64,000 nt of DNA from Squalus acanthias. Lineage: Eukaryota. Location of the stretch: the NCBI GenBank assembly GCA_030390025.1, contig CM059432.1, positions 92,134,001 through 92,198,000 on the forward strand, written 5' to 3'. Shown here one piece after another: positions 13,105 to 61,366 of the stretch (position 1 is its first letter; each line of letters begins with the position of its first letter). The position numbers and the translations under genes are program-made. A model generated the notes under the pieces. The model saw nothing but the letters and a program-made list of their open reading frames with translations, had not been told where the DNA came from and made no database searches.

Positions 13105-13143
<39 letters not shown>

Positions 13144-13753: not shown

Positions 13754-16700
13754 GGGCTCGATTTTAATAGTCCTGAGGAGGCGAGTTTGGAGGCGGGTCT
13801 GTTAGGAAAATCGGGAAAAAAGGCTTCAGAGACCCAACCCGCCTCCATCTCGCCCCCACCCAATTTTCCTGAGTGTCTGTTTAGCCGCTCCCAAACTGAT
13901 CCGTCTCCAACCAGTGGGACAGGTAGTTAAGGCAGTTAACAGCCTGTTAACCGCCTTGCTAATCCTATTTTCATAGTGGTTTCCCATTTTCCTGCTTCTG
14001 GCTCCTGTTTCCCAACTAGTCAGAAACAGGCCAGGTTCAAGGAGACGGGTTGCTGGAGGACCTGATTTGTATGCATTGGTGGAGTGTTTTAAAAGCGCTC
14101 CTGAAACATGGCTGACATTCAAATGCAACAACTTTGCTGTTGTAGGTATGGGATAACATTTTGCACATCTACTGACCTTCTGACTGTTCAAGCTGACACC
14201 CATCTGCAGAGTGTCATGAATGGAAATATTTCAGGCCACTTCGACTGTGTGCTTGCAAGATTGTTACCTCAAATGAAATCTATAGCAAGGGGATGGGAAA
14301 CATTTATGCCCTCTCATCCTGATCCTCATAATCGGGGGAGTACCAGCCACGTGGCTCAGCACAGATCTTCCTGGGAAGAGGAGTAGGAGGAGGACGAGGG
14401 GAGCCTTGCATGCCCTGTTGTGACCAATGCAGCATCCCACCAGTTCACTGATGCCTGTCAACCAGGATATGCACACTGCCATGCCAAACTACTGTAAGCT
14501 TACTCTTCAACCATAGGTGGCTGCCAGATGTCTCTGTAATTGCAGGCGACACTTGTCCAATGTCATACATCATCTCTGCTATACCCTCTTATTTCCTATC
14601 ACTTTTACCATCAGCATTACAAATGCAAGTCGCCCCGAGCCCTCAATGCACTTTTGCAATTTCCCAGAACATATAGGCCACACAATCAACTGTTTGACAT
14701 AATTTTTCTTTTAAACATCACAAAATATACCAGCAAGAGTCAGAAAAAAAAGAAACATCACCCAAGCGAGTCCCCTTGTGACTATAAGTGCTTAATCTTT
14801 CTCTTACGCGTGCTTCTACGTGGTTCTTCCCCTATGGCTTCAGCAGATGTAGAGGCACCTTGCTGACTAGGATGCTGCGCCTGCTTAGATGGCTTTGACG
14901 GGCGTCCTCTGGGTTTGGGAGCCTGGGAGGGCTTTTCAACAGTCTGCTCTTCCTGCGGCTGTGCAGGGACTGAAACGGCCATCTCGGTTGTCTCTGCAAA
15001 GTGGGTCTCTGACCAAGGGCTCCGCAGTGGCATGGTCGTGTGAGCGCTTTGAGAGGAGCCCACACTTCCTTCTGTCCTGCCAACAACATCCCTCTCATGG
15101 GTCAGCCGCACCTCAGTGCTGGCAAGTGGCTGGAGAGCACCTTGCTGCACTTCAGGGGGACCATGAGGACCCATATCTGCACTGGCAGTCCTCATCACAA
15201 GGATGTCCATGAAGCTCTGGTCTCTCTGCTCAATAGCTGCCTATCGCTCCTCCAGAGATGTCATTCTATTTTGAACAGTCACCATGTTTTCTTGACTCTG
15301 GCGATTTATTTCCTCCATGGACGTAGCCATCCTTTCCACGGAGGAGGTTGCCATCTTATCAATGGTGGTGCGTTCATGCGCCATTGCCTCCACCACGGCA
15401 GTGCTGATGTTAGAGATGGACTCCTCCAATCTCTCCACACTCGCACTAACCCTGGAGGCAAAACCTTCCAGAGACACCTGCACTTGTTCCTGTATTTCAC
15501 AAACCGCTCTTTTCTGGATGGCCCCAGAGGCACAGCGTCTGCATGCAGCTCAGCAGAGCTAGGAGATTGCTGCGACCTCTGCAGAGGACTCTCCACTGCT
15601 GTCGCTGTCTCCACCATCTGCTGATGCTCACTTATGCACTGTGATAGACCAGGTGGCAACACTAATCTAACTTGTGATGGCCCCACCGAGGTGTGTGTTG
15701 CTGCGCTGGTGCTGGGTGCACTGAGTCCTGGTGACGCTGGTCCCTCAGAGGCTTCAGGTTCCTCTGAGGAGTTGTCCGGCTCTTCGTCCTGGATCATGGG
15801 GAGGGGGGCACTCGATGGTCCTGTGGGAGAGTAAAGGCTTGAATTAGACATCTGATATTGATGTAGCGGACATATCCTTTTGAGCAGATGATACAATGCG
15901 ATTCTCTGTGAATATCATATTCCATTGCTTTCTGAGAGGGATGAAACTATTATGTCACCAGCTTCCTCTAGTGTGCCCGTCTCTCCATCGCCCACTTCCA
16001 GGTCCTCGCCACCTCCAACAATCTCATTTGCTGCTCCTCAGCACTGGTCAATGTTGCTAGGGTAGGTATTCCTCCTCCAGTCATTGCTCTCTCCCTCTTA
16101 TTGTGGGCTATCTTTTCCTGCAAGGAGGGACACAAGCGGTGTTTCAGCCACAGTGATGGAATGAGTGTGAATAATCTCTACTATAGAAGCTTTGAGGGAG
16201 ACGAAGATGGGTAAGGTGCCAAGAGGAAGGTAGTTCCCTGTGCGTTGTTAGTTGTTGTCACTGCATGACAGTGAGAGCGAGTCTAAGGGGTGCATAGGCA
16301 GGATGCTGAAGTGATTCAGTGCAGAGACAGAGATGGATAAGAAAGGATGCAAGGGAAGTAAGAGTAAGGTGGGATGTGAAGGAGGAGGCTTCCAAAGCAG
16401 AGTGCTGGTGATGAGAAGAGAAGGGAAGCAGAGTGAAGGCAAGTGAGATGGGATACTCACTTTTGATGTTCTCACAAGATCATTAAACCTTTTGCGGCAC
16501 TGGATCCATGACCGTGCATAAATGGACCTTGCGCTCACCTCCTGAACAATGCGCAGCCAGGCTGCCTTGGTCTGCTGAGGAGGCTTCCTCCGGCCATCAG
16601 GAGGGAAGAGAATCTCCCTGCACTCTCTGACAGCATCCACAAGAACGTGGAGGGACTCATCATTAAAACGAGGAGCTGCCTTGCCTCTGGAAGAAGTCAT

Positions 16701-16963
16701 AGCTTTTAAATCAAGTGCAGGAAACCACAATGGAAAGGCTCAGGCTGGATGGCAGCTTTAAACGCAGCTGCTATTATGACATCATCAAAGGCGGCCAGCC
16801 AACCCGATCCCACTCATTGGACCGGCCAGCGTGCCTCCATGAAATTAACAAGCTAGTTTAATAAAAATCGCAACTCTGCAGCTGTTCCCGCCGGAAGCGG
16901 CTCCCGAACCCGCCCACCACGCAACCCGACTCCAACCCGCCTCGGGAATTAAAATCGAAGCTC
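13754..16963. mobile_element. Harbinger derivative C: Myb gene retained, transposase core deleted
   Basis: TIRs GGGCTCGATTTTAAT / ATTAAAATCGAAGCTC. Interrupts CR1 at GCCTTA|GAGAGGG. Only a short + strand transposase remnant remains (~14294-14516). Confidence 0.88.
14782..16700 (-). pseudogene. Myb/SANT partner gene of element C, exons 16700-16461, 16117-15959, 15820-14782
   Basis: MTSSRGKAAPRFNDESLHVLVDAV...QCRKRFNDLVRTSK. GT-AG junctions. C-terminus EEPRRSTRKRKIKHL*. Exon 2 is 159 nt (160 in H), and there is a frameshift near 15490 and a stop at 15241. Confidence 0.88.
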
Positions 16964-20430: not shown

Positions 20431-21804
20431 AAATTCCCCTCCTTGATATTACAGTTTAAAGCATATGAAGAAATAGACAGTTTGTAATTTCATCCAGTTA
20501 CTGGGACACCAATGAATGTTTGAGTAATTATAATACATACATAAGCTAGCTTAGTTAGAAAATACAGTCACTTCAAATATCGTTTAACACAAACACCTTT
20601 GCGTGCCAAAGATGTGTGAATACAAGTACCACCATTTTTGCTCTCAACTTTTCAATATAGCATTGATATCTTTACAAGGTATATTTTCCCAGGGCTCTAT
20701 TTTTACTGTGAAGTATTATTCATTGGTCTGATCCTGATCTTTATACAGTGTTGTAATACTGAGAGGTTGAAATACAAACTTGTTCTCTGTGAAAGAGTTA
20801 ACCAGCCAAACTGCCCCTGGTGTACGGAATTACAGTACAGCCAAGAATAAGCTTCAAATGCGTGTCAGCCATGAGCTGATATCTCTGATGTGTGAATCAT
20901 GTTAAAAAATAGCTGAGCAGATAGAGTGAGTAAAAATAGAACAGAATGGCAGCGTGTCTCTAGTCATACAAATTATTCCAGAAAGCTTTACTGAGAAAAA
21001 CACAGCAAAACCTGGTTGTAATTAATTGCTAAAATGTTTTTTTCATCCAAGCTTTGATAAAGAACATTTTTTATCTGTTTTGCAGTGGCATTTTAATGGT
21101 TCATAATTTGCTGGAGCAGGGCATCTAGCAGCGCCTGCCATTAGTTAGGCTTGCCCTTGCACATTTAGGTTTTGAAAATTTTTGCATGGCAACTTGCTGG
21201 AAGTGTGAGCTGATAACGTCACCGTGAGGGAAAGTGGGCATCTGGGAGCCGAGTGAAGAGGGCAAGCAACTCTGTATCTTCTTAATGAATCAGATTGAAG
21301 GATTGTGAAATGAAAAGCCCAACAACCGAGAAGCAAGTATAAATTAGACTGGGTGAATTCAATGTCAAATCAGCTACAGAAAGAGAAATAAAGAGAGGGA
21401 AAGAAAGATTGGATTAAGAGTGAGAGAAAGAAGTGACAGAAAGGAAGAGCAGGAAAAAAAATGTAAATGTAAAATTTTACAGCCTAGAAATTGGATGTGG
21501 TCACAGAATGGGCAGTGTTAAGGCCTAACGATGTTAAACTGCGGCAGGTCAAAATGGTCTAGGTAGCATGCAAAATTCGTGCTCAGTCGCCATTAACATG
21601 ATTATAGTGCTGATCTCAGCGTTAAAACCGCTGCTCACTGGCTTACCGCTCAACAGGTGGGCCAATATCGGGTCCAGTCTAATTCCCAGTCATGATTGGC
21701 ACAGGCTTTATTCAGTACTTAAAGGGGAGGTGCATTGATGCTACAGCACCTCATTGTCAAGCCACTTACAACTTCACCTGGGAGAAAACGGCATTGGAAA
21801 CACA

Positions 21805-23612
21805 AAGCTGAGCCTCAGCACAGAGAGAGGGCCCACAGATTCTCAGAGGCGGCTCTTGGGGCATTGCCATCGAGAGGAGGCAGGCTATCCTCTTCCTGCA
21901 GACTGGCAGGAAGCCCTCACCACACACAACTCGAAGGCTCTGGCAGGAGATAGCCGCCTATGTGGTGGCCAGCACTGTGGTCCCAAGGTCGGCCATCCAG
22001 TGCTGAAAGAAGTTTAATGACCTCACATGCAGGTCAAGGTGAGTGAAGGCTTCAGCAACTGCCATATCCCATCATCTGCACCACAAGCCTCAGACACTGC
22101 TCAATGCACCACACCCCCAGCACTCACCTACCAACAATCTATACCTACCACCACTCACACCTCACAATCATAGCTTCACTTCACCCTCACAACCTTACCA
22201 CTGCTGCAACACTCACACCTACATCTCACACCTTACACATACTGACAGTTATTCACTGACAGCACATCACCCAAACACATTGCACCACACTCACTCACAC
22301 ACTTCCCTTTCTCTTGCCACACATTACAGGAGGGAGCAGCGACAGACAGGCGGGGGGCAAGCTGCCATCCAGAACCTCAGCCAACTGGAGGAGCGAGTGC
22401 TGGAGATCATTGGGCAGCAGATCATAGAGGCTGTGTCAACCGGTGAGGTTGAAGCCCTTGGGGACAATAATGGTATGCTCATTCCTAATCCTTCTTCTCA
22501 AATCCCACTTCCCCCTCATCCCACAATCTCTTCTCACTTTCAAGCTGCTGATGCTGTATGCATGCATATCTTGCTTTCCCCTGCCACTCCCTGCATCGTA
22601 ACCCGACTCTTGTGTCTTTCTGCTTTCAGCTAATCAAGACCAAGCACCTGAGCTGCCTGTCCCTGAGGCGATGCAGGAGAGCGAGGGGGGAGAAGAAGAA
22701 GACACAGCATCACTGCATCTGTCACTCGCAGACACTAACTCAGAAACTGGCACTGTGCGTACTTTAGAGGCTAGTGCAGAAGCGGGATCTTCACAGGGTG
22801 AGGCACCGGGCACGAGTGGGCTGCAGCAAGGCCAGGGTGAAAGGGTAGCTCGGGGGCCAGCTCCCTGGAGGGAGAGTTCGCGCATGAATTCTGCTGCACA
22901 GGACTCAGATGATGACCTTGATGGGGCAGCCTTCAGAAGAAGGGTGATGGGCATGCACACCAAATTGCTAGGTGCAATGGCAAGCCTGCCAGAGAGCCTC
23001 TTGGCAATGTCAAGGAGCATGAAGGAGTCCGCCGGACATGATGCTGCGTGTGATGGGCGATGTCGCGGTTGCCCTTGCAGCACAGGTGGAAGCGAGCCAA
23101 CATCTTAGTGCTGCAGTGGAAGCGCAGACCACTCTCATGAAGTCTCAGCTTGCTGCCACCCATGATCAGACCGCTCTCATGCAGTCTCAGCTTGCTGCCA
23201 CCCAAGCTCAGACTGCTGCCATCGTGGCTGGGTTTACCACTGTCGACCCGGGGCTTGCAGGGTGTCGCAGCAGCCCAGCTATTTGTGCTCCGACAGATTG
23301 CTAGGAATACTAAGGCACTGTCCCAGTGGAAATGTCAGTGGGTCAGTGGAGCAGGACCCTGCTGTCCTCTCTCAGGATGACAGCATTCCTGTTCCCACCA
23401 CTGCCATTCTGCCATTGCCCTTGCCTCTGCCTGTCAGCGGAGGTGGTGCAGTCTACAGCCGGGCCATAGCTGCTCAAGGTCATCCTGCAAGACCATCTGA
23501 AGTCTCCCCCATGGAAACTCAGCAGCCTTCCGCCAGCCATGCGGCAGTCACTGGGGGAGCACTTCGTAGGAGCACTAGATCAGGAAAGGGCACCCAAATG
23601 ACAGGCACTTAG
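21805..23612 (+). pseudogene. Myb/SANT partner gene of element D
   Basis: EPQHRERAHRFSEAALGAL...KKFNDLT, donor at 22039. Exon 2 RREQRQTGGG, donor at 22472. Exon 3 from 22630 ending GGALRRSTRSGKGTQMTGT*. Several frameshifts; start codon lost. Confidence 0.82.
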
Positions 23613-23800
23613 GGATTGCACAACTGTGATTAGTTGATATCGTATGTGTAAATTGATTGTTGATAAATTTAATAATTTTGCTTGGAATCTTTTGTGGTGG
23701 CTCTCATTTCAGCTTTGTGCCCAGGAGGATGCTGTGATATTCCGTGACAGAGGGATGGTATGATGGGGACGTTGTGAGCAAAGGGCATCTGGGGTTTCAT

Positions 23801-26041
23801 TCATTGGAATCGGAGTCTGATGAGGTGTTCTCGGTTAGCCCGTCTGGAAGGGTGATTGGCTGTCTGCCTGCTCCCTTCCTCCTCGTCCTCTTCCTCTACC
23901 TCTTCCACTTCCTCTTCTTCCTCCTCCTCCCTGGCAAGTTGAATCCAAAATTGACTCAGTGGCAGGAAGCAAAGGGTTATGGTTGATGGGTGCTTTTGTG
24001 ACTGGAAGTTTGTTTCTAGTGGAGTTCCGCAGGGCTCAGTACTTCAATGTAGCGGGCATGATTAAGAAGTTTGCAGTTGAGACAAAAATAGGCATGTAGT
24101 TAATAGTGAGGACGAAAGCTGTAGACTACAGGAAGATATCAATGGACTGATCAAGTTGGCAGAAAAGTGGCAAATGCAATTCAATCCAGAGAAGTGTGAG
24201 GTAATGCATTTGGGGAGGGCTAACAAGGCGAGAGAATACACTATAAATGGTAGGACACTGAGAAGTGCAGAGGATCAGAGGGACCTTGGAGTGCATGTCC
24301 ACAGATCCCTGAAGGTAGCAGGACAGGTAGATAAGGTGGTTAAGAAGGCTTACGGGATACTTTCCTTTATTAGCCGAGGCATAGAATATAAGAGCAGGGA
24401 GGTTATGCTTGAACTGTATAAAACACTAGTTAGGCCACAGCTAGAGTACTACGTACAGTTCTGGTCACCACATTACAGGAAGGATGTAATTAAACTAGAG
24501 AGGGTACAGAGGAGATTTACAAGGATGTTGCCAGGACTGGAGAATTTTAGCTATGAGAAAAGATTGGATAGGCTGGGGTGGTTTTCTTTGGAACAAAGGA
24601 GGCTGAGGGGAGACTTGATTGAGGTGTATAAAATTATGAGGGACCTAGAGAGAGTGGACAGGAAGGACCTATTTCCCTTAGCAGAGAGGTCAATAACCAG
24701 GGGGCATAGATTTAAAGTAATTGGTAGAAGGATTAGAGGGGAGTTGAGGAGAACTTTATTCACCCAGAGGGTGGTGAGGGTCTGGAACTCACTGCCTGAA
24801 AGGGTGGTAGAGGCAGAAACCCTCATCACATTTAAAAAGTACTTGGATATGCACCTGAAGTGCCTGTAACCTACAGGGCTATGGACCAAGAGCTGGAAAG
24901 TGGGATTAGGCTGGATCGCTCTTTTTCGGCCGGCACAGACATGATGGGCCGAATGGCCTCCTTCTGTGCCATAATTCTCTATGATTCTATGATTCCTCCT
25001 CTCACTCGTCCTTCTCCTGAGGTTGTCCTGCAATCCCTGGTGGCAAGGGCTGCGCCCTCATGATGGCCAAGTTGTGAAGTATGCAGCAGACCACCACGAA
25101 ATGGGATACACTCTCAGCCGACTACTGGAGGGCTCCACCCAAGCGGGCAAGGCAGCGGAACAGTTGCTTCAGTAGCCCAATGGTCTGCTCGATGATGTTC
25201 CTGCTGGAAGAATGGCTCTCATTATATGAATGTTCGGCACGAGTGGTGGGGTTGTGGAGGGGAGTCATGAGCCAGGTGGATAGAACTTGTCTCTGAGCAG
25301 CCACCCTCGAGTTTCATATGGTGGCTGGAAGATTCCTAGCACACCGGACTGACGTAGGATGAAGGCACCATGGCTGCTGCCAGGATAGTGGGCGTTGACC
25401 ATCAGAAATCGTTGGGCATGGTCGCACACTAAATGTACATTAAGTGAGTGGTAGCCTTTGTGGTTACGGAAGATCTCAGGATTGTTCTGCGGCGCCCGCA
25501 AAGCCACGTGTGGGCAGTCGATGGCGCCCTGCACCATGGGGATGCCCACTATCCTGGCAAAGCCACATGCACGCTCGTCGTGCTTCTCTCTGCTCAGAGA
25601 GAAGAAAACGTAGTCCCTTCTCCTGGTGTAGAGAGCCTCAGTGACCTCCCAGATGCAGCAATGGACAGCGAACTGTGAGATGTTAGCTATGTCTCCTGCT
25701 GCAGACTGGAAGGATCCAGTAGCAAAGAAATTGAGGGCCACGGTGACCTTGACTGCCACTGGGAGAGCCGTGTTCACCCTGCTCTCAGGCTGCAGCTCTG
25801 GTTGCAGGAGGTGGCAGAGTTCTGTGACCACCTCCTTGGTGAAGTGGAGCCTCCTAATACACTGCTCCTCGCTTAAGTGGATATAAGAGAAGTGCTCTCT
25901 GAAGACCCTAGGTGAGTAAGACCTCCTGTTGAGAGCCCTCCTCCTCCCCCCACTACGCGCATCTTCTCATCTTCTCCGCTGCCTCCGCTCCCTCTCCCTA
26001 AGATCCTGGAGCGTGAGGGGGACTACCAGTAGAGCCCCCAT
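23801..26041 (-). pseudogene. Harbinger DDE transposase of element D (interrupted by CR1)
   Basis: ORFs 25265-25831 (GAIDCPH, NHKGYHSLNV) and 25122-25304 ([16 protein letters not shown]). ATG at 26041. Acidic tail ending REHLIRLRFQ* at 23801. Confidence 0.9.
23932..24993 (+). mobile_element. CR1 LINE 3' fragment inserted in the acidic tail of transposase D
   Basis: ORF 24156-24869 (WQMQFNPEKC...LEYYVQFWSPH...VWNSLP) and an ATTCTATG-type tail. Confidence 0.92.
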
Positions 26042-27199
26042 GACTGTGAGCAAGTGTTGTGAGCAGAAGCCTTTAAATAAGAATGAAGGCGTCTCCACTT
26101 GCCCCAACACTCCCTGTTACCATAGAACCTTGCAATAAGTTAATAAAGCTGCTGAGTTGCAGAAAGTTGCACAGAGCCAGTCAAACTGAACAAACATGTC
26201 AGCTGCAAGTTTTTGCTGATGATCCCTTTAAATATCACTGCTGGAGCCTCCATCCTGCTTGTCAACACTTGCTCAGCTCGTCGCACGTAAGGCATGCCGG
26301 TAAGTGGAGTGGCAAAGTTGAAACTTCCAGATCGGGCATCAAATGAGCATTGCACTCACTGATGTCGCGATCTGCACAATCTACATATCCCTAGCGAGCG
26401 CGGACATCGGCAGTGCTGCCGGCCATCCGAAAATGGCAGCCGCTGTGGGACCCGCTGGCAGCGGGCGGAAGAGCGGTGGCCGCCATGTTTTTGCCCGAAT
26501 CTGGCAGTAATGGGTGAGGCCAAACCCCTGAATTTCTAGGCCATTATTTTTTAAATTTCCAACAATTAAAACCTGAAGTAATGAGACTGCAGACTTGTAA
26601 TAGTTAATTTTCAGTGCCAGTGAGGTTGACTGGCAGTAATTAATACTTAGCACCTCATTAAAAAGGTACTTGGACTTGAAATTACTTGACTTAACTTTCC
26701 GTGGCGAGTTTAGTTCATATCTAAAGCGCAAATACAGCAACTTCATGCCGTTCAATACATTTTAATGGTGAGGCAGGTCGAGAGATGCCGTTTTTGGGAA
26801 TTGAACAGCAGAGCAGCGCAACTCGGACAGCAACTATTGGATTTTTAAAATATCACAAGATCATAAGATAGATTCAGATGAGGAAGGCCACCAGTTCTAT
26901 TGCAGTTCATCCACACAGTAAGTTCCACTAGTCTCCCATCATAGTAGCCAATTGTTCCTTAAATGATTCCACAGTTTCATCTCCATTAAATATGTCAGGT
27001 AAGACTTACATTCAAGCTGTAATGACAAACCAGGTGTGTTTCTCGTGGTAAAGATGCTGCTGAGCAGCAAATCTTGTCAAATATGTGATCCTATCATGAA
27101 AAGAATAGCTGTGTCTTGACAACCCGACAGTGTGACATGTGATATCGCACTATGCATCCCAATAGGCAACGTCGCTACAGAGCAGAACATAAGAGCTGA

Positions 27200-27995: not shown

Positions 27996-29082
27996 TTGGC
28001 ACTGAGTGCCTCCTCTCTGATCTCCAAACAAAAATTCCTCAAAATTTTCTCTTTAACAATGCCCCCAATCATCCACCTAACATTTTTCTCATTACTGTAT
28101 GGTGTCCAGTTTTGTTTCTGCAAATTACTTTGGGATGTTTCATTATGTTAAAGGTGTTGTTGTTTTAACAAAGGGCCAGTAAGTAATCATTGCAGAATAC
28201 ATATATTTTACATCAGTGCATGTTGATTATCTCCAGAGGTTGTTGCATAGGTCTGAGATGAGCTTCCGACCACATATCCGCACCATCACTAAGACCGCCT
28301 ACTTCCTCCTCCGTAACATCGCCCGTCTCCGCCCTGCCTCAGCTCATCTGCTGCTGAAACCCTCGTCCATGCCTTTGTTACCTCTAAGCTTGACTATTCC
28401 AATACACTCCTGGCTGACCTCCAATCTTCCACCCTCCATAAACTTGAGCTCATCAAAAATTCTGCTGCCGTATCCTAACACGCACCAAGTCCCATTCCCC
28501 CATCACCCCTGTGCTCGCTGACCTACATTTCCGATTGAGCAACGCCTCGATTTTAAAATTCTCATCCTTGTGTTCAAATCCCTCCATGGCCTCGCCCCTC
28601 CCTATCTCTGTAACCTCCTCCAGCCCTACAAACCTCTGAGATATCTGCGTTACTGCACTTTTGGCATCTTGCCTATCCCCGATTTTAATCATTCCACCAT
28701 TGGCAGCCACTCCATAGTGCCATTAAATGGTGCTGAAACGGCGGCCGCTGCTCTTTTCCAGCTGCTGGTGGTTCCCGCAGCGGCTGCCATTTTTGTGCTT
28801 ACCTTTGCGCTGTCGGTAACTGGCAGCGCCATGCTGGAGAAAATGGTGACGGTGTGACATAAATCAGCGTGCAATGCCGACTTTACATCACACGTGCGAA
28901 CTCCGACCCTCACGTTGAATTCAGCACTGGGTCCTAAGCATGCCAGGTTAATATCTTTCAGGTAAGTTTGTATTTAAGCTTCTGGACTATTTTTTTTAAA
29001 TTTTATTGAAGTAGTGGCTTGCTGCAATAGATGTGAAAAGTTGGACGCTTGCAAGGGCTCAGATGGTAAATGATGGCCTTTG

Positions 29083-29230
29083 AGAAGACAGAACATGCTG
29101 CAAATACTTAGCAGGTCAGGCAACATCCGTGGAGAGAAAAACAGAGTTCACGTCTCAGGTCGAGATGCTGCCTGACCAGCTGAGTATTTCCAGGATTTGA
29201 TGCTGTCATTTCACATTTACAGCATCTGCT
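29083..29230. mobile_element. Degenerate Penelope-like fragment with inverted halves
   Basis: A minus-strand copy of the 9373-9450 sequence is joined to a plus-strand copy (GATGCTGCCTGACCAGCTGAGTATTTCCAG). Confidence 0.6.
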
Positions 29231-30464
29231 TGCAGAGGGACTAGAAAGACACAGAAAAGGAGGAAGCCAAGGAGGAGGAATCAGACAGAAGGATGCATCC
29301 CAGACAGCCCCTTTGTGGCTGGGATATCCAGGATGGAATCATTCGCCTGTGGTCCCAGTGACCACAACCCCAATTTTCCTTTCAACATTAGTCCCACACT
29401 TTACCTTCCCTCTGTTACTGACCTCTTGGCCATGATGCTGAAATAAAAGCCACCACAAAGCAAACTTTCCAATCCACCTATATACATCTAGCCATCCAAT
29501 GTGACATCAAGAAATCAACTCATCACCCGTATGCATTCTCTTAGTGACTGTCTTCTGTGTACCTTTGCCTATCCTACTGATGTCACGCAGTGCTACCCCA
29601 GTAGCTGCTGCATGGCTGGTGGAAGGCTGCTGACTTTCAATGGGGGACACTGCAAATGTCCTTGCTGGTTGACCTTGAGGAGCTTGTGGCTGGGAGTGTC
29701 AAATCAATCTTCTTCTTCTTGTTCTTCTTCACTCTCCTCTCCCTCTTCTTGTCACCCACTGACTGTGCAGGCTGCATTTCTTGGGTGTGTGAAATGAGGA
29801 AGGCACAAGGGTGGAGTTCTGGTGATGGAAGGGCAGGAAGGCATGAGGTGCAAGCCAGAAGGAGGATAACATATGAGGATACCAGCATCTTGTATCCTTT
29901 CAACCCCTCCGCTGGCCAAGGACTCAGCCATGCCCCTGCCAAGAATGGCCTGCACCATCTCCTCCAAGGAGGTGAGGTGAGGCTAGGAATGGGAGATGTG
30001 CCTCGTGATTGGTGCAGATTGTTGGGAGGTGAGTGATTGAGGGTGGAGTCATGCATTGAGCAGTGTGTGACGCTAGTTGGTAGGAGATGGGTTTTGAAGA
30101 TGCATTCACTGATCTTGACCAGTGGTCTGAGTTCATGAAGCTTCTTTGGGCACTGGAGCCAGATGGTGGGGTGACACTGCTGGCAGTGACTGCCTCGGTG
30201 ATGTGGTCCCACATCGTTCTTTCTGGAGGGCCTCCTGGTCCCTGTAGGTAGAGGACCTCTCTTGTAGTGTTGACCCCCTGCACAAAGCTGGAGTGCTGCA
30301 TGTGAGACCCTGGGTGCCCCTTCCCTGGCTTGCTGAGCCACTTGTGTTAGTGCTGAGGCATTTTTCCCATTTTTGAGGTTAGGAAGGGAATTCAGCTTTA
30401 CTTCTTTTAATGTTAAATATTTTTTTTAAGGCAGAAAGGGCTGAAAACTGTAGTGTTTCACTTC

Positions 30465-40203: not shown

Positions 40204-42540
40204 GGCCGGAACTTTCCGGGGTGGTAGCGGGCGAGATCAGTGGCGGGTCGGGTGGGAAAGTTGTTATTTTTGACAGCGGGCCAGGAACCATAAGAACATA
40301 AGAACATAAGAAATAGGAGCAGGAGTAGGCCATTCAGCCCTTCGAGCCTGCTCCGCCATTCAATGAGATCATGGCTGATCTTCTGCCTCAACTCCATTCA
40401 CCGGCCCTATCGCCATATCCCTTGATGCCCTTACTAGTCAGAAATCTATCGACTTCTGTTTTGAATATACCCAATGACTGAGCCTCCACAGCCCTCTGGG
40501 GTAGAGAATTCCAAAGATTCACCACCCTCTGTGTGAAGAAATTTCTTCTCATCTCAGTCCTGAATGGCCTACCCTTTATCCTGAGGCTGTGGCCCCTGGT
40601 TCTAGACTCCCCAGCCAAGGAAAAATTCTCCCAGCATCCACCCTATCAAGCCCTGTAATAATTTTGTATGCTTCAATGAGATCCCCTCTCATTCTTCTGA
40701 ATTCAAGAAAATACAGGCCTAATTTACTCAATCTCTTCTCATACGACAGTCCCGCCATCCCAGGAATCAATCTCGTGAACCTTCGTTGCACTCCCTCTAT
40801 GGCAAGTATATCCTTCCTTAGGTAAGGAGACCAAAATTGTACACAGTACTCCAGGTGCCCCCTGTCATCCAGCCCCCACGCGCCTTTCCCCCAGGCGCGT
40901 CTGTCATCGCGGAGCCGACCCAACCGGTAGCGGCGGGCAACCCAATTGAAATCATTATCACGTAGTTTACAGGCAGTTAAGAGCCTTTTTCCACTTTTTA
41001 AATTTCCCTGCATGGCCATGGGATTCACACAGCTCAGGAACCACATCTGTCAACCTGAGGCAGGAGTTCCGTGGCCATTGCACCAGCTGATTACTTGACA
41101 GCATCAAACGTACAGTAAAAGCTCCCACCTGACAGATGATCACTTTCCTCAGGCAGAAGCTGTTGCTCCGTCCATCTCCAGCACAGATTCTGCAGGCTGC
41201 AAGTGTTTCCAGCAAAGTCTCCATCCAGTATCACCTCATTGGAAGAACCTTTCTCACCATTGACAGAATGCTTCTGACATCTCTATTTCACCTGCCATCT
41301 ATTCCATCAACATGGGTACCGTTTATACTGTCTCACCTTGTTCCTCAGAATCGAACCACGATGAGCCCCAACACCAGCAGTACCAGGCACACCAACAGCA
41401 CCAACCACAACACCAACCTTCTCCGCAATCACCTGATGCTGCACAGGACACAGGGCACCAGCACCTGAGCACATTGCTGCCTGGGAGGCCAGGGATGGCC
41501 TCACTATGGCCAGATTTAGTTAACTTTATGCTGTACACCTATATGATGTGCCAGGTTAGCACCACCCCACACCAACACCATAAAGCATCCCTACAATGAC
41601 CAAGCCATTTTCACACTCTTCACCATTGCAGGGGTTACCATTATGTCTCACCATTCACTGTAACTCACGAAGCCACTTCCAAAGGTGCACACAGATCTCT
41701 CCAAGACCGGAAAGTGTTGAAAATAAAGATTTTTATGTTTGACACCACATTAACAGAAACTTTACATAAACATTGGATAAAGCATCCTTGTGTGCTGTTA
41801 GTTGGTATGATTGCAGTAGGATGAGGGTGAGTGTGAGGGGTGGCTAGTGAAATGGGGATGTGATAATGTAGATAGAGAGAGAGGGATGGGTGGAGGTGCA
41901 GGTAAGTTGGTGTGAGTAAGGATGTACAGGAGTAGGGTTGGGAAGACGGAGTGATGGGGATGTGATGAGAGGCACAGCAGGATTCAATTGAGTGTGGCTT
42001 TGTACTGACGTTTCCTGAACTAATTAGATCATTGAAACGTATGCAGCACTGCACCCAGGTCCTCCTGATCACATCCCTGCTTGTGACCTCCTCTGTAATC
42101 TGCAACCAGGCTGTCTTGGTCTCCTGGGGAGGTCTCTTCTGCCCATCGGAAGGGAAGAGGATCTCCATGCATACTCTGACTCCCTCCATAAGCATATGGA
42201 GGGAGTCATCGGTGAACCTGGGTGCAGCCCTCTGCCTCTGTGCAATCATGTTCAGTGTTTGCAGCAATCCAACGCTGTAGAGCACTGACAGCACTATGTT
42301 AGATTAAACTTCAAATGTAATGTGGCCATGGTCCCTTTAAAGATCCCGGCTGAAAACGCGTCATGAATGACGTCACCAGGCCCGCTCCATCTCATTGGGC
42401 CAGGTAATGTGCTGGGCGGGTTTAATAGGCCCCATTAAAGTAAGTTCATTTTCAACAGCAGGATGGAGCCACCAGCGGGGTCGCGACCCGACATGGACAC
42501 CGCCCGCACCGGACCTGCCCAGGTAGGCAAAATTCTGGTC
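40204..42540. mobile_element. Harbinger derivative F (transposase core and most of the Myb gene deleted)
   Basis: Termini GGCCGGAACTTT / AAAATTCTGGTC. TSD ACA at 40201-40203 and 42541-42543. Transposase N-terminus MGTVYTVSPCSSES... at 41312 (+). Myb exon 1 RAAPRFTDDSLHML...RFNDL at ~42249-42010 (-). Confidence 0.85.
40289..40857 (-). mobile_element. CR1 3' fragment nested in element F
   Basis: HLEYCVQFWSPY...LWNSLPQ and a (TTCTTATG)3 tail. Confidence 0.92.
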
Positions 42541-51066: not shown

Positions 51067-52126
51067 ACTGGACCTACCTGCTCTCCTCGACTGCGACCTT
51101 GTCTCGAGGTCCCACGCTGCCGCATGCTTGGAAATTTGAATGGGCCGTGCAACCCGTTAAAGGGGCCACGCAGCCCAAAAAAAATTAGGGGGAACACTGG
51201 TCAGCACTTGTGACCTTGACTTCACTGGAGAGTAAAAGCAGGCGGGGTGTAAAAGCAGCATTGTACCCGATCCCACCCGTTCCCCAACGGTTGGGTTAGG
51301 TTAAAATTGCCCACATCAAGTCTGCACTATTCTTCCTCTTGACATACTGCCAGTGAGCACTAGCTCTCATCGGTAAAATCTAAGCTGAAGTCTGTTGAAG
51401 TGCCCTCTAGTTATGAGGGCATCAGAGTCTTGGCAGAGTGTACTTCTAACCCTTGGAACCTTCACGGTGGTGTTGCATTTCTGCAGACTTTAGTAATCCA
51501 GGGGCCGCTGGTGGGGAGCCGATTGATGGTGCATTTGAGCAGTCAAATCCCTAGTACTTCAATGGGAAGAGAGCTAATGGCACATACTGTGAGGCATGAA
51601 TCAAATAGTTTGATCTGGTGTTCATATTTACTTTGAGAATTTCAAATTTTTTGAATAACCTTGAAGCTGAAATCAGATTCACAGAAAGACAAAAATTGAA
51701 TTCTCAGATATATGACAGATACAGGACTTAATCAAAAACTTTGTAGGCCATCATGTTAATGAAACACACAGCTGGACACATTTTACAGGTTCACTCACAA
51801 AATGGAGTAAGGACTGTATTTGAACACAATTATTTGAAATAGTGTGATCTATAATGACACAGCTTGAGGCAAAAATATCTTCCAGCAGCCAAGTAGCAGA
51901 CCATTGTTCTCTCCTATAAATCTTGGAAACACAGCGGTTTTGCTTTCGTTTTTCAGCCCAAGAGAACCATTTAACTGGAAACCTTAGTAATATGGGGGGC
52001 GATTTTCCCAATGGAGGCGAGTTTCGGTTTGGGTGGGATCCAAACTCACCTCCACTGAGAGGTGGGAAAAAATTGTGATTTTCCCCTAATTGGCCAGTTA
52101 ATTTCAGAGGTTTGGGTTCCCCTGGG

Positions 52127-52190
52127 CCAATTAGTCTTTTGAAACTGAAACTCGCCTCTGCTGACGTCACTTATCCAGCTTCATTTAAGG
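52127..52190 (+). promoter_or_regulatory. Putative Myb-gene promoter module: CCAAT, CRE (TGACGTCA), TATA-like TTTAA
   Basis: CCAAT 52127-52131, TGACGTCA 52162-52169, TTTAAG 52184-52189, ATG at 52268. The same order occurs upstream of the Myb genes of C, F and H. Confidence 0.55.
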
Positions 52191-52267
52191 GCTGCTTGCT
52201 GCCTTGGCTCATTCCACTGGTTTTTGGTCGATGGTGCACCACCTCCAAACTTTTATCTGCTTCAACA

Positions 52268-53397
52268 ATGGCCAACTCCAAGGCAAGGGCCTCCCCGAGG
52301 TTCTCAGATGAGGCGCTGGGAATGTTGGTTGAGGAGGCGAGAGCCAGCAGGGAGGTGCTCTTCCCCTCATCTAGGAAAGAAACCAAGGCTGTCTGGGTAC
52401 AGCTGGCAAGGGATATAACCTCCAGATCGGTGTGCAGCAGAACATGCATACAGTGCCGTAAAAGGTTCAATGACCTTGTAAGATCAGGCAAAGTGAGTAT
52501 ACCTTCAGCTTGACCCTCCTTCTGCTCCCCTTCTCCTCTCATCACCAGCACTCTGCATTGTCAACTTCCTCCTCCACATCCCACTTTACCCTTACAACCC
52601 TTGCACCCTTCACCATCCCTCTCACTCTATGAACCCAATCACTTCACTATTCGACTATGCTGCCCTCACACTCCCTTTCAATGTTATGCAATGACAACGA
52701 CTAACAACGCACATGGAGGGCCCTTGGACATGGAACCTCACTCCATCTTTGTCTCCTTCTAAGCATCTATGCTCTGGACTCTCTACACTCACTCCATCAT
52801 TCTCACTCCAACTCCACTTGTCTCCCTCACTGCAGGAAAAGAGAGCCCACAATAGAAGGGAAAGGGCGAAGACTGGAGGAGGGCTACCTTCCCTAGCCCT
52901 TCTCACCCAGGCTGAAGAGGCGGCCCTGGACATCACCGGTGCAGAGGTGGAGGTGGAAGTGGGGGACGGACAGACGGGCGAGTAGGACTGCCAGTGCAGA
53001 GACGGGTCCCCATGGCTCCCCTGATGTGCAGCAAGGTGCTCTCAAGCCACTTGCAAGCACTGAGGTGGACCTGACCCATGAGAGGGAAGTTGGTGGCAGA
53101 CAACAAGGAAGTGGGGGCTCCTCTCCAAGTGCTCACACTTCCATGCCACTGTGTAGCCCTCGGTCAGAGCCCCACCAGAGTCCGCACCCAACTGAGATGG
53201 ACGTCTCAGCCCCTGCACTGCCGCAGGATGAGCAGACATTTGGCGAGCCCTCACAGGCTCGGAAACCCAGAGACACCCGCCAAAGGTGTCGAAGCAGGAG
53301 CAGCATGAAAGTGAGCAAGGGGGCCTCTACTTCTGCTGAAGCCACAGGGGGAGCACCACATAGGAGCACGCGTAGGGGAAAAATAAAGCACCATTAG
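52268..53397 (+). pseudogene. Myb/SANT partner gene of element G (deletion joins exon 2 to mid exon 3)
   Basis: Exon 1 at 52268-52492 (MANSKARASPRFSDEAL...QCRKRFNDLVRSGK). Exon 2 from 52836 (EKRAHNRRERAKTGGG). Junction near 52981. Ends GAPHRSTRRGKIKHH*. Confidence 0.88.
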
Positions 53398-53654
53398 TCA
53401 CAGGGGTAGACACTTGGGTGAATGTTTATGTGTATTGACGAAATGCCATCCCTGTTTGAAAGTATAAAAATGATTTGATGGCAAACTGTTGGCGTGATGG
53501 CATCTCTTATTTCGCCTTAGGCAGCTCCACATTGCGGGCTCCGCGACACTTGCGTGGTCAGGTTGGTGGCCAGAGTGAAAGGAGGCCAGAGAGTCATGGC
53601 CATTGTCTATCATGTCTTAAGATGGAGCCAAGGACATGTGCCAACATGGGCAAC

Positions 53655-54849
53655 CTATGCAAACCTGGCCAGGATAAGTGCATCATGGGCAGCCATGTGC
53701 TGCCGCTGCTGCTGGTCGATAGGCCGGCGCTCGGTCCTCCTACTGCTCCTCTTCCTCCTCCTCCTCCTCCTCATCTGAGGAGGCTATGAACTGAGCCACT
53801 TGCTCATCAGGAAGCTGCAAGCCACAACGCTGTGCCATGTTGTGCAGTGCACAGCAGACCACGACCATTCTGGAGACCCTGCTTCAGGGCTCCACCTGAT
53901 CTGTCAAGGCATCGGAATTGCATCTTCAACAACCCAATGGTTTGCTCGATGATGGACCTAGTCAAAGTGTGGCTGGCGTTGTAGCGCTCTTCAGCCTCGT
54001 TAGCTGGCCTCCTGATCAGCGTCATTAGCCACTTCTTCAGGGGGTAGCCCTTGTCACCAAGGAGCCATCCGTTAAGTTGGTTTGGCGGATCGAAGAGTGG
54101 AGGAACACTAGAGTGCCGCAGGATGAACGAATCATGGCAACTACCACAGAACTTGGCGCAAACATGCAAAATCTCCTTCTTGTGGTTACACACCAGCTGT
54201 ACGTTGAGGGAGTGGAAGCCCTTGCGGTTGACAAAGATAGCTGGGTTGTGATGGGATGCCCTAAGGGCCACATGTGTGCAGTCTATGACGCCCTGCACCA
54301 TTGGCAAGCCTGTCATATTTGCAAAGCCAACTGAACGCGCAGCTACACTTGCTTGATCCCTTGAAAAGTGGATGTAATTGTGGGCCTTTGCGAAAAGGGC
54401 ATCGGTAACCTGCGTGATGCAACTGTGGGCGGCCGACTGGGAGATGCCGCTGATGATTCCTGGAAGGAGCCTGAGGCAAAAAAGTTGAGTATGGTGGTGA
54501 CTTTGACAGCCACTGGTAAGGGGTGTCCACCCACTCCTCTGGGCTCCAGGTGTTGGTGCAGCAGTGCGCTGATGTCTCCGACAACCTCTTGCGAAAGTCT
54601 CAGCCTCCTTTGGCACTGCTGCTCACTCATGTTGAGGTAGCTCATCCTCTGTCTGTAAACCCTGAGAGGGGGGTATCTCCTGCGGCGACGTGCTTCCATG
54701 CGCTGCTGCCTTCTGCCCTTTGCACCATCAGGTGGGTGAGCAGGAGATTGGGGCTCCTGCTGCTGAGCTGCCTGGTTCTGCTGCTGCTGCCGTGGCTGCT
54801 CCTCATCCGAATCTGAGCTCCATGGTGAAAGGAAATAAATGGTTCCCAT
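53655..54849 (-). pseudogene. Harbinger DDE transposase of element G
   Basis: [18 protein letters not shown]..., [47 protein letters not shown]. Frameshifting deletions near 54460 and 53885. Ends DALILARFA*. Confidence 0.92.
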
Positions 54850-55453
54850 GCTGCTGACAGATACCTCCGTTGGGGAAGCGCTCAGTCCAAGCGAGGAGAG
54901 GGTCTGCCAAGAAGGTCCCACAGTTGAGAGATAGAAGCTGCAGCACCTCCGACTTCGGTAGGCCTGCTAAAAGTGCTGAAAGACCTTTGGAACAAAAGTT
55001 CTGCCACCTGCAACTGATCCCTGATGAAAGCTCTGTTTTAATGGTGGAGCTGCAGCTGTGAGGAGGCCACCCACTTGTCAACCCACCAGGATCAGCTGGC
55101 GTGGTTTAGGAGGGTCGTGGAACACGCTGAAAATGTGGTAAAATAACGAGGGTTTGTCAAAATAGGATTATAGAGGCCCTTAACTACTAATTTAGGGTCT
55201 TAACTACCTCTCTGGACTGATGGAGGCGGGACCGAATCGCACCCATCAAAACCACCTCGGTCCTCATGTATCTTTCTACCCTTTTTGTTGACCATTAAAC
55301 TGACAACTCAGTAACCATTCATCATTGCAAAAAATGTCAATGCTGTGCAACACACTGCTGTCTATTGCACCAGTGCTCAGATTTTTCAGTGACATCATGA
55401 ATTGATACAGTTGTTTAATGTAGTAAAATGTGGAACAAAATTAACAGCATATG

Positions 55454-55877: not shown

Positions 55878-56019
55878 ATGAATGTGGTAAAAGTATTTGG
55901 TCTGCATTTTTCACACTGCAGCTGTTGTGAATTAATAGTGAATTGATGTGGTTCAAAGGTAACTTGATATTGCCCATTTAATTTGGTTTGATTGCTTCAA
56001 AATATATTGTGGTAAAGAT

Positions 56020-58127: not shown

Positions 58128-61100
58128 GGGCTCGATTTTGCCAGGCCCAAGGAGGCAGGATTGGAGGCGTGTGAGTTGTTAAAATCGGCAAAAATGGTGG
58201 GCGGGCCCGATCCCACCTCCATCCCGCCTCCGAGCAATTTTCCCAAAGCGTGTTTTCTGACCCCCTTTCCATCCGCCTCCAGGAGGCGGGATAGGCCCTT
58301 AAGGCCCTTAACAACCACTTAATAGCCTCTATAATCCCATTTTGAGAGGCCTTTCCGATTTTCAGTCATTCCCCCCATCCCTCACACCTCCTCTGGAACA
58401 CGCCAGGTAATGCTGGCGGCCTCACAAGTGGATTGCCTACGACCAGCTGCAGCTCCACCATTACAAAAGGAGTTTTCACCAATGATCATTTGCAGGTGGC
58501 AGAACTTTGTTGTTTCAGGTCTGGGGGAACTTTTAGCAGGCATACTCAGTGTTGTGGAAATTTGGAGCCTGACACCCATCTCCAGTGTGACATCCTGGGA
58601 AACCCCTCTCCCCACCTTGACTGAGCGCTTCCTCAACTGAGGCATATACCAGAAGCATGGCGACCATTTAATTCCTTTCCTCCTGGACATCAGATTCGGA
58701 TGAAGACCAGTCACAGCAGCAGCAGAACCATGAGCAACAGCAGCACCAACAGCAGGAGCATCAACAGGAGCGCCAAGCTGCTAGTCACCCACCTGAAGAT
58801 GTACAGGCCAGAAGTCGCCAGAGTGCGACCATATTGCTGACCGGGATGCAAGGGACGCACTCATGTTGGTCACATTTGCTTAGCCTGTACAATCAATCAC
58901 TTTTGCCTCGCACCTTCTTACCAGAGCATTGACAATGGACAAGAACCTGCGGATTCCTATCACTCTGACCACCATACTGACAACTGCAAGTCGCTCTAAG
59001 CCCTCAATGTGGAAGTCCCATTTGCGAAATGACACAGGCCACAACTTCAACAGTTTGCCATCAGAAATGTTTATCACAACAAGCAACTGGTGGCATTTCA
59101 AAAATAAACACAACATAACACCCAAGTGACTACCCTTGTGACTACTTGTGTATTATCTTCCTCTTACGCGTGCTCCTACGTGGTGCTTCCCCTGTGGCTT
59201 CAGCAGATGTGGAGGCCCCTTGCTCACATTCTTGCTGCTCCTGTCTCGATACCTTTGGCGGCCGTCCTCTGGGTTTGCGAACCTTTAAGGGCTCGGCAAC
59301 AGTCTGCTGCTCCTATGGCTGTGCAGGGGATGAGACGCCCATCTCAGTTGGGTGAGGACTCTGGTGGGGCTCTGACCGAGGGCTTTACATTGGCATGGTC
59401 GTTTGAGCGCTTGGAGAGGTGCCCCCACTTCCTTGTTCTCTGCCACCAACATCCCTCTCATGGGTCAGCCCCACTTCAGAGCTAGCAAGTGGCATGACAG
59501 CACCTTGCTGCACTTCAGGGGGGCCATGAGGACCCGTTTCTGCACTGGAAGTCCTACTCCAGAGGACTTCCATGAAGGTCTGGTTTCTATGCTCAGTAGC
59601 TGACCATCGCTCCTCAAGAGATGCCAGTCTATTCTGAACAATGACCATATTTTCTACTCTCTGGTGACTTAGCTCCTCCATGGCCATAGCCATCCTCTCC
59701 TCTACTATAGCCATCCTTTCCACGGAGGTTGCCATCCTTTCCATGGTGATGCGTTCATGTGCCAATGCCTCCACAAAGGCTCTGCTCATGTTAGCGATGG
59801 ACTCCTCCATTCGCTCGACACTCGCAGCGACTCTGGAGACAAAACCTGCCAGAGACTCCTGCACCTGTTCCTGGAGTTCCAGCACCACTCTCGTTCTGGA
59901 TGGACCCGGAGGCACAGGGTCGACATGCAGCTGAGCCGAGCTGGCAGAGTCCTGCGCCCTCCGATGAGGACTCTCCACTGCTGTCCCTGTCTCCACCATC
60001 TGCTGCTGCTCACTTATGAGCTATGATACACCAGGTGCCAGCACTACTCTATCTCGCGAAGGTCCCACCGAGGTGTGAGTGTCTGTGCTGGTGCTGGGTG
60101 TGCTGAATTCTGCGGAGGCTGCGCCCTCAGAGGTTGCAGCTTCCTCTGAGGAGTCTGGAAGCTCAGGCTCTTCCTCCTGGACAGTGGGGACGGGGGCTTT
60201 CGATGGTCCTGTGGGGGAGTAAAGGAAAGAGTTAGAGATGTTAGGTCAAGGTTACATGAACATTGAATAGTGCAGATGATCATAAGTCAATCTGTTAGAG
60301 CATCAGATTCATTATCAGTGACTCATGCAATGTCAATGAGAGAGATGCCAAACTATTCTGTCACCAGCTTGCTGCGATGCGCCCATCTGTCCGTCCCCCA
60401 CTTGGGAATCCTCCTCGATCCCGGCAATTTCCAGGGCCGCCTCCTCCCAGGCGGTGAGCTGGGCTACTGAGGGTGGCCCTCCTCCTGTCATGGCTCTTTC
60501 CCTCTTATTGTGGGCTCTCTTTTCCTGCAATGAGGGACACAAGTGGAGTTTGAGTGAGAATGAAGGATTGAGTGTAGAGAATCCATAGCATAGATGCTTA
60601 GAAAGATACAAAGGACCATCCCTGTGTGTTGAAAGTTGTTGTTGTCATGGCATCACAGTGATAGGGAGTGTGAGGGTTGCATGGTCGAATAGTTAAGTGA
60701 AGGTGACCTTCGAGAGAGAGGGAATGGGTAAGGGTGCAGGTATGTAAGTGTCAAGTGGCATGTGGAGGAAGAGGTTGGCAAAGCAGAGTACTGGTGAGGA
60801 GAGGCGATGGGGATCAGATTGAGGGTGATGGGAAAGTCATACTCACTTTTCCTGTGCGGAGAAGATCATGAAACCTCTTCCTGCATTGCAGCCAGGTTCT
60901 GTGGCTCAGCGAAATGGAGTTGACCTCCTGGGCCACTTGCAGCCACACAGCTTTTGTCTTCTGGGGTGGCTTTTTTCTCCCCAAAGAAGGGAACAGCACC
61001 TCCTTATTACATCTGGCTCCGTGCACCAGAGCTTGGAGGGAGGGCTCATCAAACCGAGGTGCACACTTTTGCTTGATCGTGGACATTGTCGGGAAATCAA

Positions 61101-61366
61101 CACCTTCATACAATTTGCAGAGCCTTTGCAGTCTCCAGAGGAAGCAAGGCTGCTTGCAGGTCTTAAATCCAGCAGCATTGATGATGTCATCGGAGGCGAC
61201 TTTCTGTATAAAAAGACTCATTGGGCCAGGTGTTCCCACACGCAGGAAATCAATTGCCCAATTAGGGGAAAATCCCACTTTTTCAGCACTTCACTTAGGA
61301 GTCGGGGTCCTGACACGATTTCCACCTGACACGCCCCAGCCCGCCCACACTGACAAAATCCAGCCC
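58128..61366. mobile_element. Harbinger derivative H: Myb gene retained, transposase core deleted
   Basis: TIRs GGGCTCGATTTTG / CAAAATCCAGCCC (12/13). TSD TCT at 58125-58127 and 61367-61369. Transposase N-terminus plus tail remnant at ~58657-58882 (+). Confidence 0.94.
59142..61086 (-). pseudogene. Myb/SANT partner gene of element H, exons 61086-60847, 60524-60365, 60208-59142
   Basis: MSTIKQKCAPRFDEPSL...QCRKRFHDLLRTGK, EKRAHNKRERAMTGGG, and GEAPRRSTRKRKIIHK*. Exon phases 0 and 1 intact. In-frame stops at ~60021 and 59385. Confidence 0.9.

What the first reader, a model, noticed from the sequence alone, without database searches (positions are those of the whole stretch)
13754..61366. Harbinger derivatives that keep the Myb partner gene but lose the transposase core
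Seen: elements C (3.2 kb) and H (3.2 kb) keep both TIRs and all three Myb exons with splice sites, while the transposase is reduced to an N-terminal stub, joined to its last ~20 codons in H. B and F have the same N+C join, and E keeps only the transposase tail. The breakpoints and sequences differ, so the losses look independent. Established: Harbinger transposition needs both a DDE transposase and a Myb-like protein that binds the element ends. Inference: these could be semi-autonomous families that encode their own end-binding adaptor and borrow catalysis in trans. Caveat: every Myb copy here has lesions, and B and F also lost most of the Myb gene.
Basis: partly seen in the sequence, partly recalled or inferred. 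Interest (0 to 1): 0.7.

Follow-up and report, generated by a model that had tools for sequence, protein, structure and literature searches.

The report
Harbinger copies missing their transposase core
Several decayed copies of a shark-type jumping gene lack the middle of their cutting-enzyme gene, likely because short repeats on either side make that stretch easy to delete; two of them still carry a broken DNA-binding partner gene that likely rode along as a passenger, a layout already described in a nematode.

Summary
The anatomy is real. C (13754-16963) and H (58128-61366) keep both ends and a three-exon Myb/SANT gene but lack about 970-990 of 1,195 transposase bases. Three corrections: C also keeps a C-terminal tail; H and F break at the same point and frame; and G (51995-55255), not mentioned, shows the reverse loss (transposase kept, most of Myb exon 3 gone). 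B, E and F lost both genes. In G the transposase core is bracketed by GAG/CAG tracts sharing more short words than any control window pair, and the B and H/F joins fall on such words, so a deletion hotspot explains the recurrence without selection. H belongs to a very abundant family; its junction is probably multi-copy and the one stop I could check is private. But H's Myb decays neutrally (3 stops against 3.6-4.1 expected), G-like transposase sequence is abundant genome-wide, and no spliced transcript was listed. Only C hints at longer Myb retention (P about 0.01, post hoc). Myb exon 1 is old and lineage-specific while exon 3 is recently shared (mosaic). Myb-only Harbingers are already published (C. 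inopinata, 2026). Semi-autonomy is unproven.

The parts
13754..16963 (.). Element C: transposase-core-deleted Harbinger derivative inserted in a CR1 fragment; left TIR 13754-13767, right TIR about 16949-16963 with one extra base; imperfect 3-bp duplication
14293..14497 (+). C transposase remnant: about 18 N-terminal codons joined out of frame (near 14345) to about 50 C-terminal codons; 3 stops in the 52 codons scored
14782..16700 (-). C Myb/SANT gene: exon 1 16700-16461, exon 2 16117-15959, exon 3 15820-14782; 1-base deletions near 16035 and 15512, stop near 15243
58128..61366 (.). Element H: transposase-core-deleted derivative in a CR1, both TIRs, TCT duplication, ends confirmed by empty-site contigs
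58657..58883 (+). H transposase remnant: about 53 N-terminal codons joined out of frame (zone about 58810-58827) to the last 19-20 codons; 1 stop
59142..61086 (-). H Myb/SANT gene, 488 codons: exon 1 61086-60847, exon 2 60524-60365, exon 3 60208-59142; stops at 60023, 59387, 59315; no frameshift
   Evidence: the stop at 59315 is private
51995..55255 (.). Element G: reverse case; whole but broken transposase (54849-53655, minus strand; about 3 frameshifts, 1 stop); Myb gene (plus strand from 52268) lost intron 2 and most of exon 3 at a join at 52979/52980; TIR clear only at the 51995 end
40860..42540 (.). Element F: left end cut by a CR1; N+C transposase join 41312-41523 at the same point as H; only Myb exon 1 (42249-42022, minus) and intron 1 kept
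2430..3791 (.). Element B (outside the given range, nested in A; ACA duplication): in-frame N+C join 2957-3085, most of Myb lost; its Myb junction recurs in 3 contigs
28700..30400 (.). Element E (D-like group, ends approximate): acidic transposase tail about 29230-29360, Myb 3' end about 29561-29695 and exon 1 remnant about 29970-30300; middle of Myb lost
138..5507 (.). Element A: full-length comparator of a second group (Myb plus strand, transposase minus strand, TGA duplication)
21482..26541 (.). Element D: full-length comparator, broken, CR1 in the transposase tail
12762..13639 (.). 878-bp non-coding derivative with H-like ends (lost both genes)

Best explanation
C and H are dead copies of Harbinger derivatives that lack the transposase core, likely lost by deletion between short GAG/CAG direct repeats at the two ends of that gene, and that were likely copied around by enzyme made by full-length relatives, with the Myb gene likely riding along as a passenger. 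Shown: the anatomy, the repeats around the core in G, joins of B and H/F on such repeats, the reverse and double losses in G, B, E and F, H's high-abundance family, and neutral decay of H's Myb. Inferred: the deletion mechanism (slippage or template jump during gap repair after excision); mobilisation in trans; and that Myb survives because the hotspot breakpoints lie outside it and the founding copy was young, not because it is needed. Harbinger proteins are made away from the element and act in trans (established knowledge, recalled), so a copy gains little from its own Myb while full-length relatives supply one.
For: G's first and last 190 transposase bases share 14 different 7-mers and 5 9-mers. 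Controls: 45 window pairs inside the core (mean 2.3, maximum 8 7-mers; no 9-mers) and 528 pairs in H's Myb gene (mean 3.8, maximum 12; 0 of 528 reach 14). B's join lies on a 7-base word shared by both ends of G's gene, and the H/F join on a shared 9-base word. H and F break at the same place although H's stub groups with core-bearing G. Losses go in both directions: G, B, E, F and the 878-bp element. B's Myb-deletion junction, in an element that lost both genes, recurs in 3 contigs at depth 127 against 7-9 single-copy, so amplification does not need Myb. H branch: dN/dS 0.82 on 126 codons; 3 stops against 3.6-4.1 expected; 1 of 4 stops in the stub where 16% are expected (P=0.51). G-like core bins have summed depth 105k-296k, the same order as H's Myb bins (143k-509k).
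Against: C: 3 of its 4 stops lie in the transposase remnant, which holds 15% of the stop opportunity (P=0.012, one-sided, post hoc, 1 of 2 elements with a full Myb gene). Its Myb has 1 stop against about 5 expected (P about 0.04), though also 2 frameshifts and branch dN/dS 1.07. C's transposase side has a long branch (0.64 against 0.14 for H) and more C-specific differences than its Myb side (P=0.007). C's own join shows little shared sequence in G, and G is only a proxy for each parent. Myb exon 3 depth (about 530k, G and H bins summed) exceeds G-like core depth by about 2-fold or more. No joint from H's stub into a G-like core is among the 15 of 227 joints shown, so H-armed copies may be mostly core-less. 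H's stop at 59315 is a sense codon in 97.7% of depth, so the family gene was open at that site. Summed contig depth is not a copy number.
Confidence: 0.6

Rival explanations
1. Semi-autonomous families: after losing the core, H- and C-type lineages kept a working Myb that reads their own ends and recruits transposase from other subfamilies through a shared exon-3 region.
For: Exon 1 (DNA-binding domain) and the ends are lineage-specific (4-fold sites differ at 11 of 19 H-C and 12 of 17 H-G sites) while exon 3 is recently shared (26 of 120 and 10 of 60; Fisher P 0.002 and 5e-5). C's stop pattern. H's checked stop is private, and 35 contigs cover its junction zone. Precedent in C. inopinata (PMC13668399). 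An earlier unchecked note reports a 3,233-bp core-less family of a few thousand copies in this genome.
Against: H's Myb decays neutrally; exon-3 dN/dS 0.61-0.82 with intervals including 1. Exon-1 purifying signal (0.2-0.3) can date wholly from autonomous ancestors. Transposase stubs and UTRs of H and C are less G-like than exon 3, so exon 3 does not visibly travel with one transposase. Core sequence is abundant.
Confidence: 0.25
2. Private deletions: each core loss happened in one already inserted copy (or dead on arrival) and never multiplied; the families are mostly full-length.
For: Depth at 58824 is 5.4k, against 36k-540k at the 24 other listed H positions and 240k for its bin. A private indel in G drops depth to 670-864 in a 105k bin, a similar order of fall. 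No listed piece spans the junction. Overhang from full-length tails could supply the 35 contigs.
Against: The 35 contigs carry a letter that differs from H, up to 60 letters from the contig end, and only about 9% of laid X1 records are partial; 5 contigs in X16, 1 in X15 and 2 reads in X22 agree. Sibling pieces are only 82-87% like H, close to the 80% cut, which by itself lowers depth. B's other junction is multi-copy.
Confidence: 0.15

Closest known systems
Harbinger-1M_cIno and Harbinger-2M_cIno of Caenorhabditis inopinata (PMC13668399; abstract, one results section and discussion read)
   Same: PIF/Harbinger derivatives that keep the MADF/Myb gene and lack the DDE gene, beside DDE-only and non-coding derivatives; trans supply proposed, and called hypothetical by the authors.
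   Different: There 14 of 19 MADF loci are intact and expressed, one intact DDE gene remains, and an insertion was caught live. Here every copy in the window is broken, core sequence is abundant, and the losses map to direct repeats around the core.
Harbinger3_DR of zebrafish (seen only as cited in passages of PMC9710019; the primary paper is not held)
   Same: Two-gene element; the Myb-like protein binds a subterminal motif and interacts with the transposase; both are needed.
   Different: Autonomous; binding and interaction are untested for these shark proteins.
MtPH families of Medicago truncatula (PMC2213677, passages)
   Same: Families of simple internal-deletion derivatives, including transposase-bearing elements that lost orf1, like G.
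   Different: Plant lineages with different gene order; no Myb-only class in the passages seen.
Shark 'putative nuclease HARBI1' proteins (Pristiophorus, Heterodontus, Heptranchias)
   Same: G's transposase core, up to 65% identity; same N-terminal acidic/Gln tract and C-terminal acidic tract.
   Different: Gene-model annotations without element context.
Semi-autonomous RLG_Sabrina Gypsy elements of wheat (PMC9744471, passages)
   Same: Concept of elements keeping one of the needed proteins.
   Different: Retrotransposon keeping GAG; thousands of copies with the ORF intact.

Membership tests
PIF/Harbinger (PHIS) DNA transposons | DDE transposase of the HARBI1/DDE_Tnp_4 type in full-length members | tested here: met
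   A, G, D hit PF13359 at E 8e-31, 1e-28, 8e-12; shark HARBI1-like best hits
PIF/Harbinger (PHIS) DNA transposons | Second gene with Myb/SANT domain | tested here: met
   PF13873 in exon 1 of A, C, F, G, H, 5 of 5 scanned
PIF/Harbinger (PHIS) DNA transposons | Short TIRs and 3-bp target duplication | tested here: met
   H TCT with empty sites, B ACA, A TGA; C imperfect
PIF/Harbinger group in the narrow sense (TWA) or NuwaI (CWG) of Han et al. 2015 | Group-specific duplication sequence | tested here: not met
   TCT, ACA, TGA fit neither TWA nor CWG (definitions from passages); the TIRs of A, B, C, G and H start with GGG as in NuwaI; no tree against reference groups was built
MADF/Myb-only derivative class (Harbinger-1M_cIno type) | Ends and Myb gene kept, DDE core absent | tested here: met
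   C and H
MADF/Myb-only derivative class (Harbinger-1M_cIno type) | Intact Myb ORF in the copies | tested here: not met
   H 3 stops; C 2 frameshifts and 1 stop; family majority is sense at the 1 of 3 H stops visible
MADF/Myb-only derivative class (Harbinger-1M_cIno type) | Amplified cluster sharing the deletion | tested here: inconclusive
   35 contigs, depth 5.4k at 58824, overhang not excluded; C was not covered by the one read-laying run
MADF/Myb-only derivative class (Harbinger-1M_cIno type) | DDE-bearing copies scarce | tested here: not met
   G-like core bins 105k-296k against single-copy 7-9; whether any is intact is unknown
MADF/Myb-only derivative class (Harbinger-1M_cIno type) | Spliced Myb expression | tested here: inconclusive
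   Two runs only guessed to be RNA, contigs only; no intron-skipping joint among 15 of 227 shown
Semi-autonomous element | Purifying selection on Myb after transposase loss | tested here: inconclusive
   H neutral; C weak signal; only terminal branches testable
Semi-autonomous element | Own Myb required for mobilisation | not testable with these tools
   needs a transposition assay

The most novel reading that the evidence does not exclude
Shark Harbingers run a modular system. The ends and the Myb DNA-binding exon form old, lineage-specific address modules, and exon 3 is swapped between lineages. Transposase-less lineages such as C kept a working Myb under selection long after the core was lost, using it to recruit other subfamilies' transposase to ends that no other adaptor reads: true adaptor-only parasites in a vertebrate.
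Probability: 0.2. Interest if true: 0.6.

Novelty: new member of a known kind. Interest (0 to 1): 0.3.

Why it matters
If the passenger reading holds, this is ordinary decay of a two-gene DNA transposon with one tidy point: Glu/Gln-coding tracts at both ends of the transposase would predispose its core to deletion. That gives a mutational null that claims of 'Myb-only' partitioning must beat. If the semi-autonomous reading holds, it extends the nematode case to a vertebrate with thousands of copies, enough to test selection on internal branches. It would also supply a pool of stand-alone Myb genes for domestication.

Tried and rejected
No assembly is held for this window, so junction BLAST, family consensus and internal-branch dN/dS could not be run. 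Protein searches with H exon 3 (longer forms) and H exon 1 (longer forms) found nothing, which is weak evidence. The profile-free search of representatives gave 6 weak hits; 4 are shark gene models, 1 is a bacterial kinase and 1 is unnamed, and I take those two as chance. No RNA holder is on record; runs X15 and X16 are only guessed to be RNA, introns are as deep as exons and one 270-base piece crosses intron 2 unspliced, so they say nothing firm on expression. Raw reads X22 come from a distant organism (280 laid, 94% run on unlike) and give no copy number. The global-alignment identities had a shuffled baseline of 62% and were dropped; multiple-alignment values were used. The three-way count on the C-terminal tail was dropped because the aligner missed G's 9-base gap. 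H's tail matches G's only weakly by DNA score (15 of 500 shuffles reached it); it rests on the translated motif. A common ancestral deletion for H and F was considered and is disfavoured, but not excluded because the elements are mosaic. Splicing as the source of the join was considered and rejected by eye: no splice donor at G's N-side break, and TIRs are present. Look-ups of earlier findings by sequence found no look-alike for H or C. Two primary papers (Smith 2012, Sinzelle 2008) are not held. No supplements were read; those of PMC9179366 and PMC4482050 may list Myb-only families.

Full report
Setting. No assembly is held. The window is repeat-rich (CR1, L2-like and SINE fragments, judged from ORFs and recall, and a satellite). 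G's transposase core has its best relatives among shark gene models, up to 65% identity (198 hits among 278 candidates), so the host is most likely a shark. I mapped nine related Harbinger elements in two groups: A, D, E and B, C, F, G, H plus an 878-bp non-coding one. All coding ones have a Myb/SANT gene and a DDE transposase gene facing each other.

Observation. C and H are as described in outline: both ends, three Myb exons with splice sites, and a transposase remnant of 205 and 227 bases against 1,195 in G. H's ends and 3-bp duplication are confirmed by CR1 contigs lacking exactly 3,242 bases in three runs. Three points need correction. C also keeps about 50 C-terminal codons (0 of 500 shuffles reach the score against G's tail), so four elements (B, C, F, H) have an N+C join. 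H and F break at the same column and frame. G is the mirror case, with the whole transposase and most of Myb exon 3 gone. Of six coding derivatives, two keep Myb only, one keeps transposase only and three lost most of both.

Why the core goes. The transposase starts with an acidic and Gln-rich tract and ends with an acidic tract, also in named shark relatives. In G these ends share 14 7-mers and 5 9-mers; no control pair reaches 14 (0 of 45 core pairs, 0 of 528 Myb pairs). B's join sits on a shared 7-mer and the H/F join on a shared 9-mer; C's join shows little homology in G, which is not its parent. H's stub groups with G rather than F (26 against 5 informative sites, P=0.0002), so the H/F coincidence is best read as two events at one hotspot. 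The deletion mechanism itself is inference.

Did they multiply? One read-laying run covered G and H only (51800-61600). In run X1 (95% read) unique sequence has depth 7-9, H's nine bins 143k-509k, G's three core bins 105k-296k and G's arm bins 12k-83k. These sums are not copy numbers, but they show very abundant families and no scarcity of core-like DNA. At 58824, inside H's junction zone, depth is 5.4k, with 35 contigs carrying another letter, up to 60 letters from their ends. That fits a multi-copy junction. But it is 7-fold or more below the other listed H positions, and overhang from full-length tails is not excluded. No joint from H's stub into a G-like core is among the 15 of 227 joints shown. 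B's Myb-deletion junction recurs in 3 contigs (depth 127), so an element with neither gene also multiplied. The tool showed 40 of 1,777 differing places and warned that some were not counted. An earlier unchecked note describes a 3,233-bp core-less family of a few thousand copies in this genome, Myb open by luck. I could not confirm that it is H's family.

Was Myb kept by selection? H's gene has 488 codons, three stops and no frameshift. The stop at 59315 is private (97.7% of depth sense, 90 contigs); the other two were not displayed. On H's branch dN/dS is 0.82 (126 codons), stops match neutrality (3 against 3.6-4.1), and stub and Myb died together as far as stops tell (P=0.51). C differs: 3 of 4 stops are in the remnant (P=0.012), Myb has 1 against about 5 expected (P about 0.04), and the transposase side has a long branch. 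These tests are post hoc on small counts. C's Myb also has two frameshifts and branch dN/dS 1.07, and a foreign left arm or a recent exon-3 swap would give the same picture. Expression is undecided.

Mosaicism. Among H, C and G, exon 1 is near saturation at silent sites (dS 1.2 or more, dN/dS 0.2-0.3 where measurable) while exon 3 has dS 0.21-0.28; 4-fold sites differ significantly between the two exons in 3 of 3 pairs (P 0.002 to 5e-5). G and B share exon 1 at only 4 of 21 differences, so exon 1 is not simply fast. A and D show the same trend more weakly (8 of 10 sites in exon 1; 36 of 82 in exon 3; 39 of 70 in transposase). Exon 3 was therefore exchanged between lineages with different ends (inference). 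This makes a private end-reading adaptor plausible, but the transposase stubs and UTRs of H and C are less G-like than exon 3, so a shared catalytic chassis is not shown.

Known kin. Myb/MADF-only Harbinger derivatives with proposed trans supply of DDE were published for C. inopinata (PMC13668399; abstract and two sections read). The roles of the two proteins come from passages of PMC9710019. The reverse loss is noted in Medicago (PMC2213677, passages). PMC9179366 (abstract and passages) found no Harbinger in elephant shark and asked for other cartilaginous fishes to be examined. PMC5741667, PMC4482050 and PMC9744471 were seen as passages. Eight searches listed no paper on shark Myb-only Harbingers or on a repeat-bracketed transposase core, judged from listings; the library lacks most subscription journals and Repbase.

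Verdict. Real structure, known kind, most likely non-autonomous deletion derivatives with a passenger Myb (0.6). Semi-autonomy is possible (0.25), chiefly for C; private deletions 0.15. Interest 0.3.

Noticed in passing
window 60847-61086, 16461-16700, 52268-52492 versus exon 3 (59142-60208, 14782-15820, 52980-53397): Myb exon 1 and element ends are near silent-site saturation among H, C and G, while exon 3 (81-87%) and intron 1 (70-80%) are much closer: mosaic elements.
   Followed up: partly
window 54758 / 59118 (run X15): One contig joins a G-like transposase N-terminal stub directly to sequence just past the Myb stop: a further core deletion that spares Myb.
   Followed up: no
window 58637 / 59711 (run X1): One contig lacks 1,073 bases from the transposase 5' UTR into Myb exon 3: another H-like derivative.
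   Followed up: no
window 12762-13639, 13754, 58128: Three elements of the same group sit inside CR1 coding fragments; the 878-bp one has a 50-bp duplication at its left end.
   Followed up: partly
window 6494-7969: Near-perfect 675-base inverted repeat with a 49-base spacer, starting from a Harbinger-like end; fold-back duplication or assembly artefact.
   Followed up: no
window 47600-51070: 3.4-kb C-rich tandem array with 20-23-bp units.
   Followed up: no
window 46764-46935: Head-to-head palindrome, 85-base arms, 99% complementary.
   Followed up: no
window 34829-35494 and 46242-46655: Old Harbinger transposase fragments with no Myb hit nearby in the translated search.
   Followed up: partly
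window 2957-3085: B's N+C join is in frame and open (42 codons), unlike those of C, F and H.
   Followed up: no
window 9692-10290, 33018, 33722, 37435-37860, 55454-55876: Several short non-coding elements or lone ends resembling the A/D-type terminal repeat.
   Followed up: no
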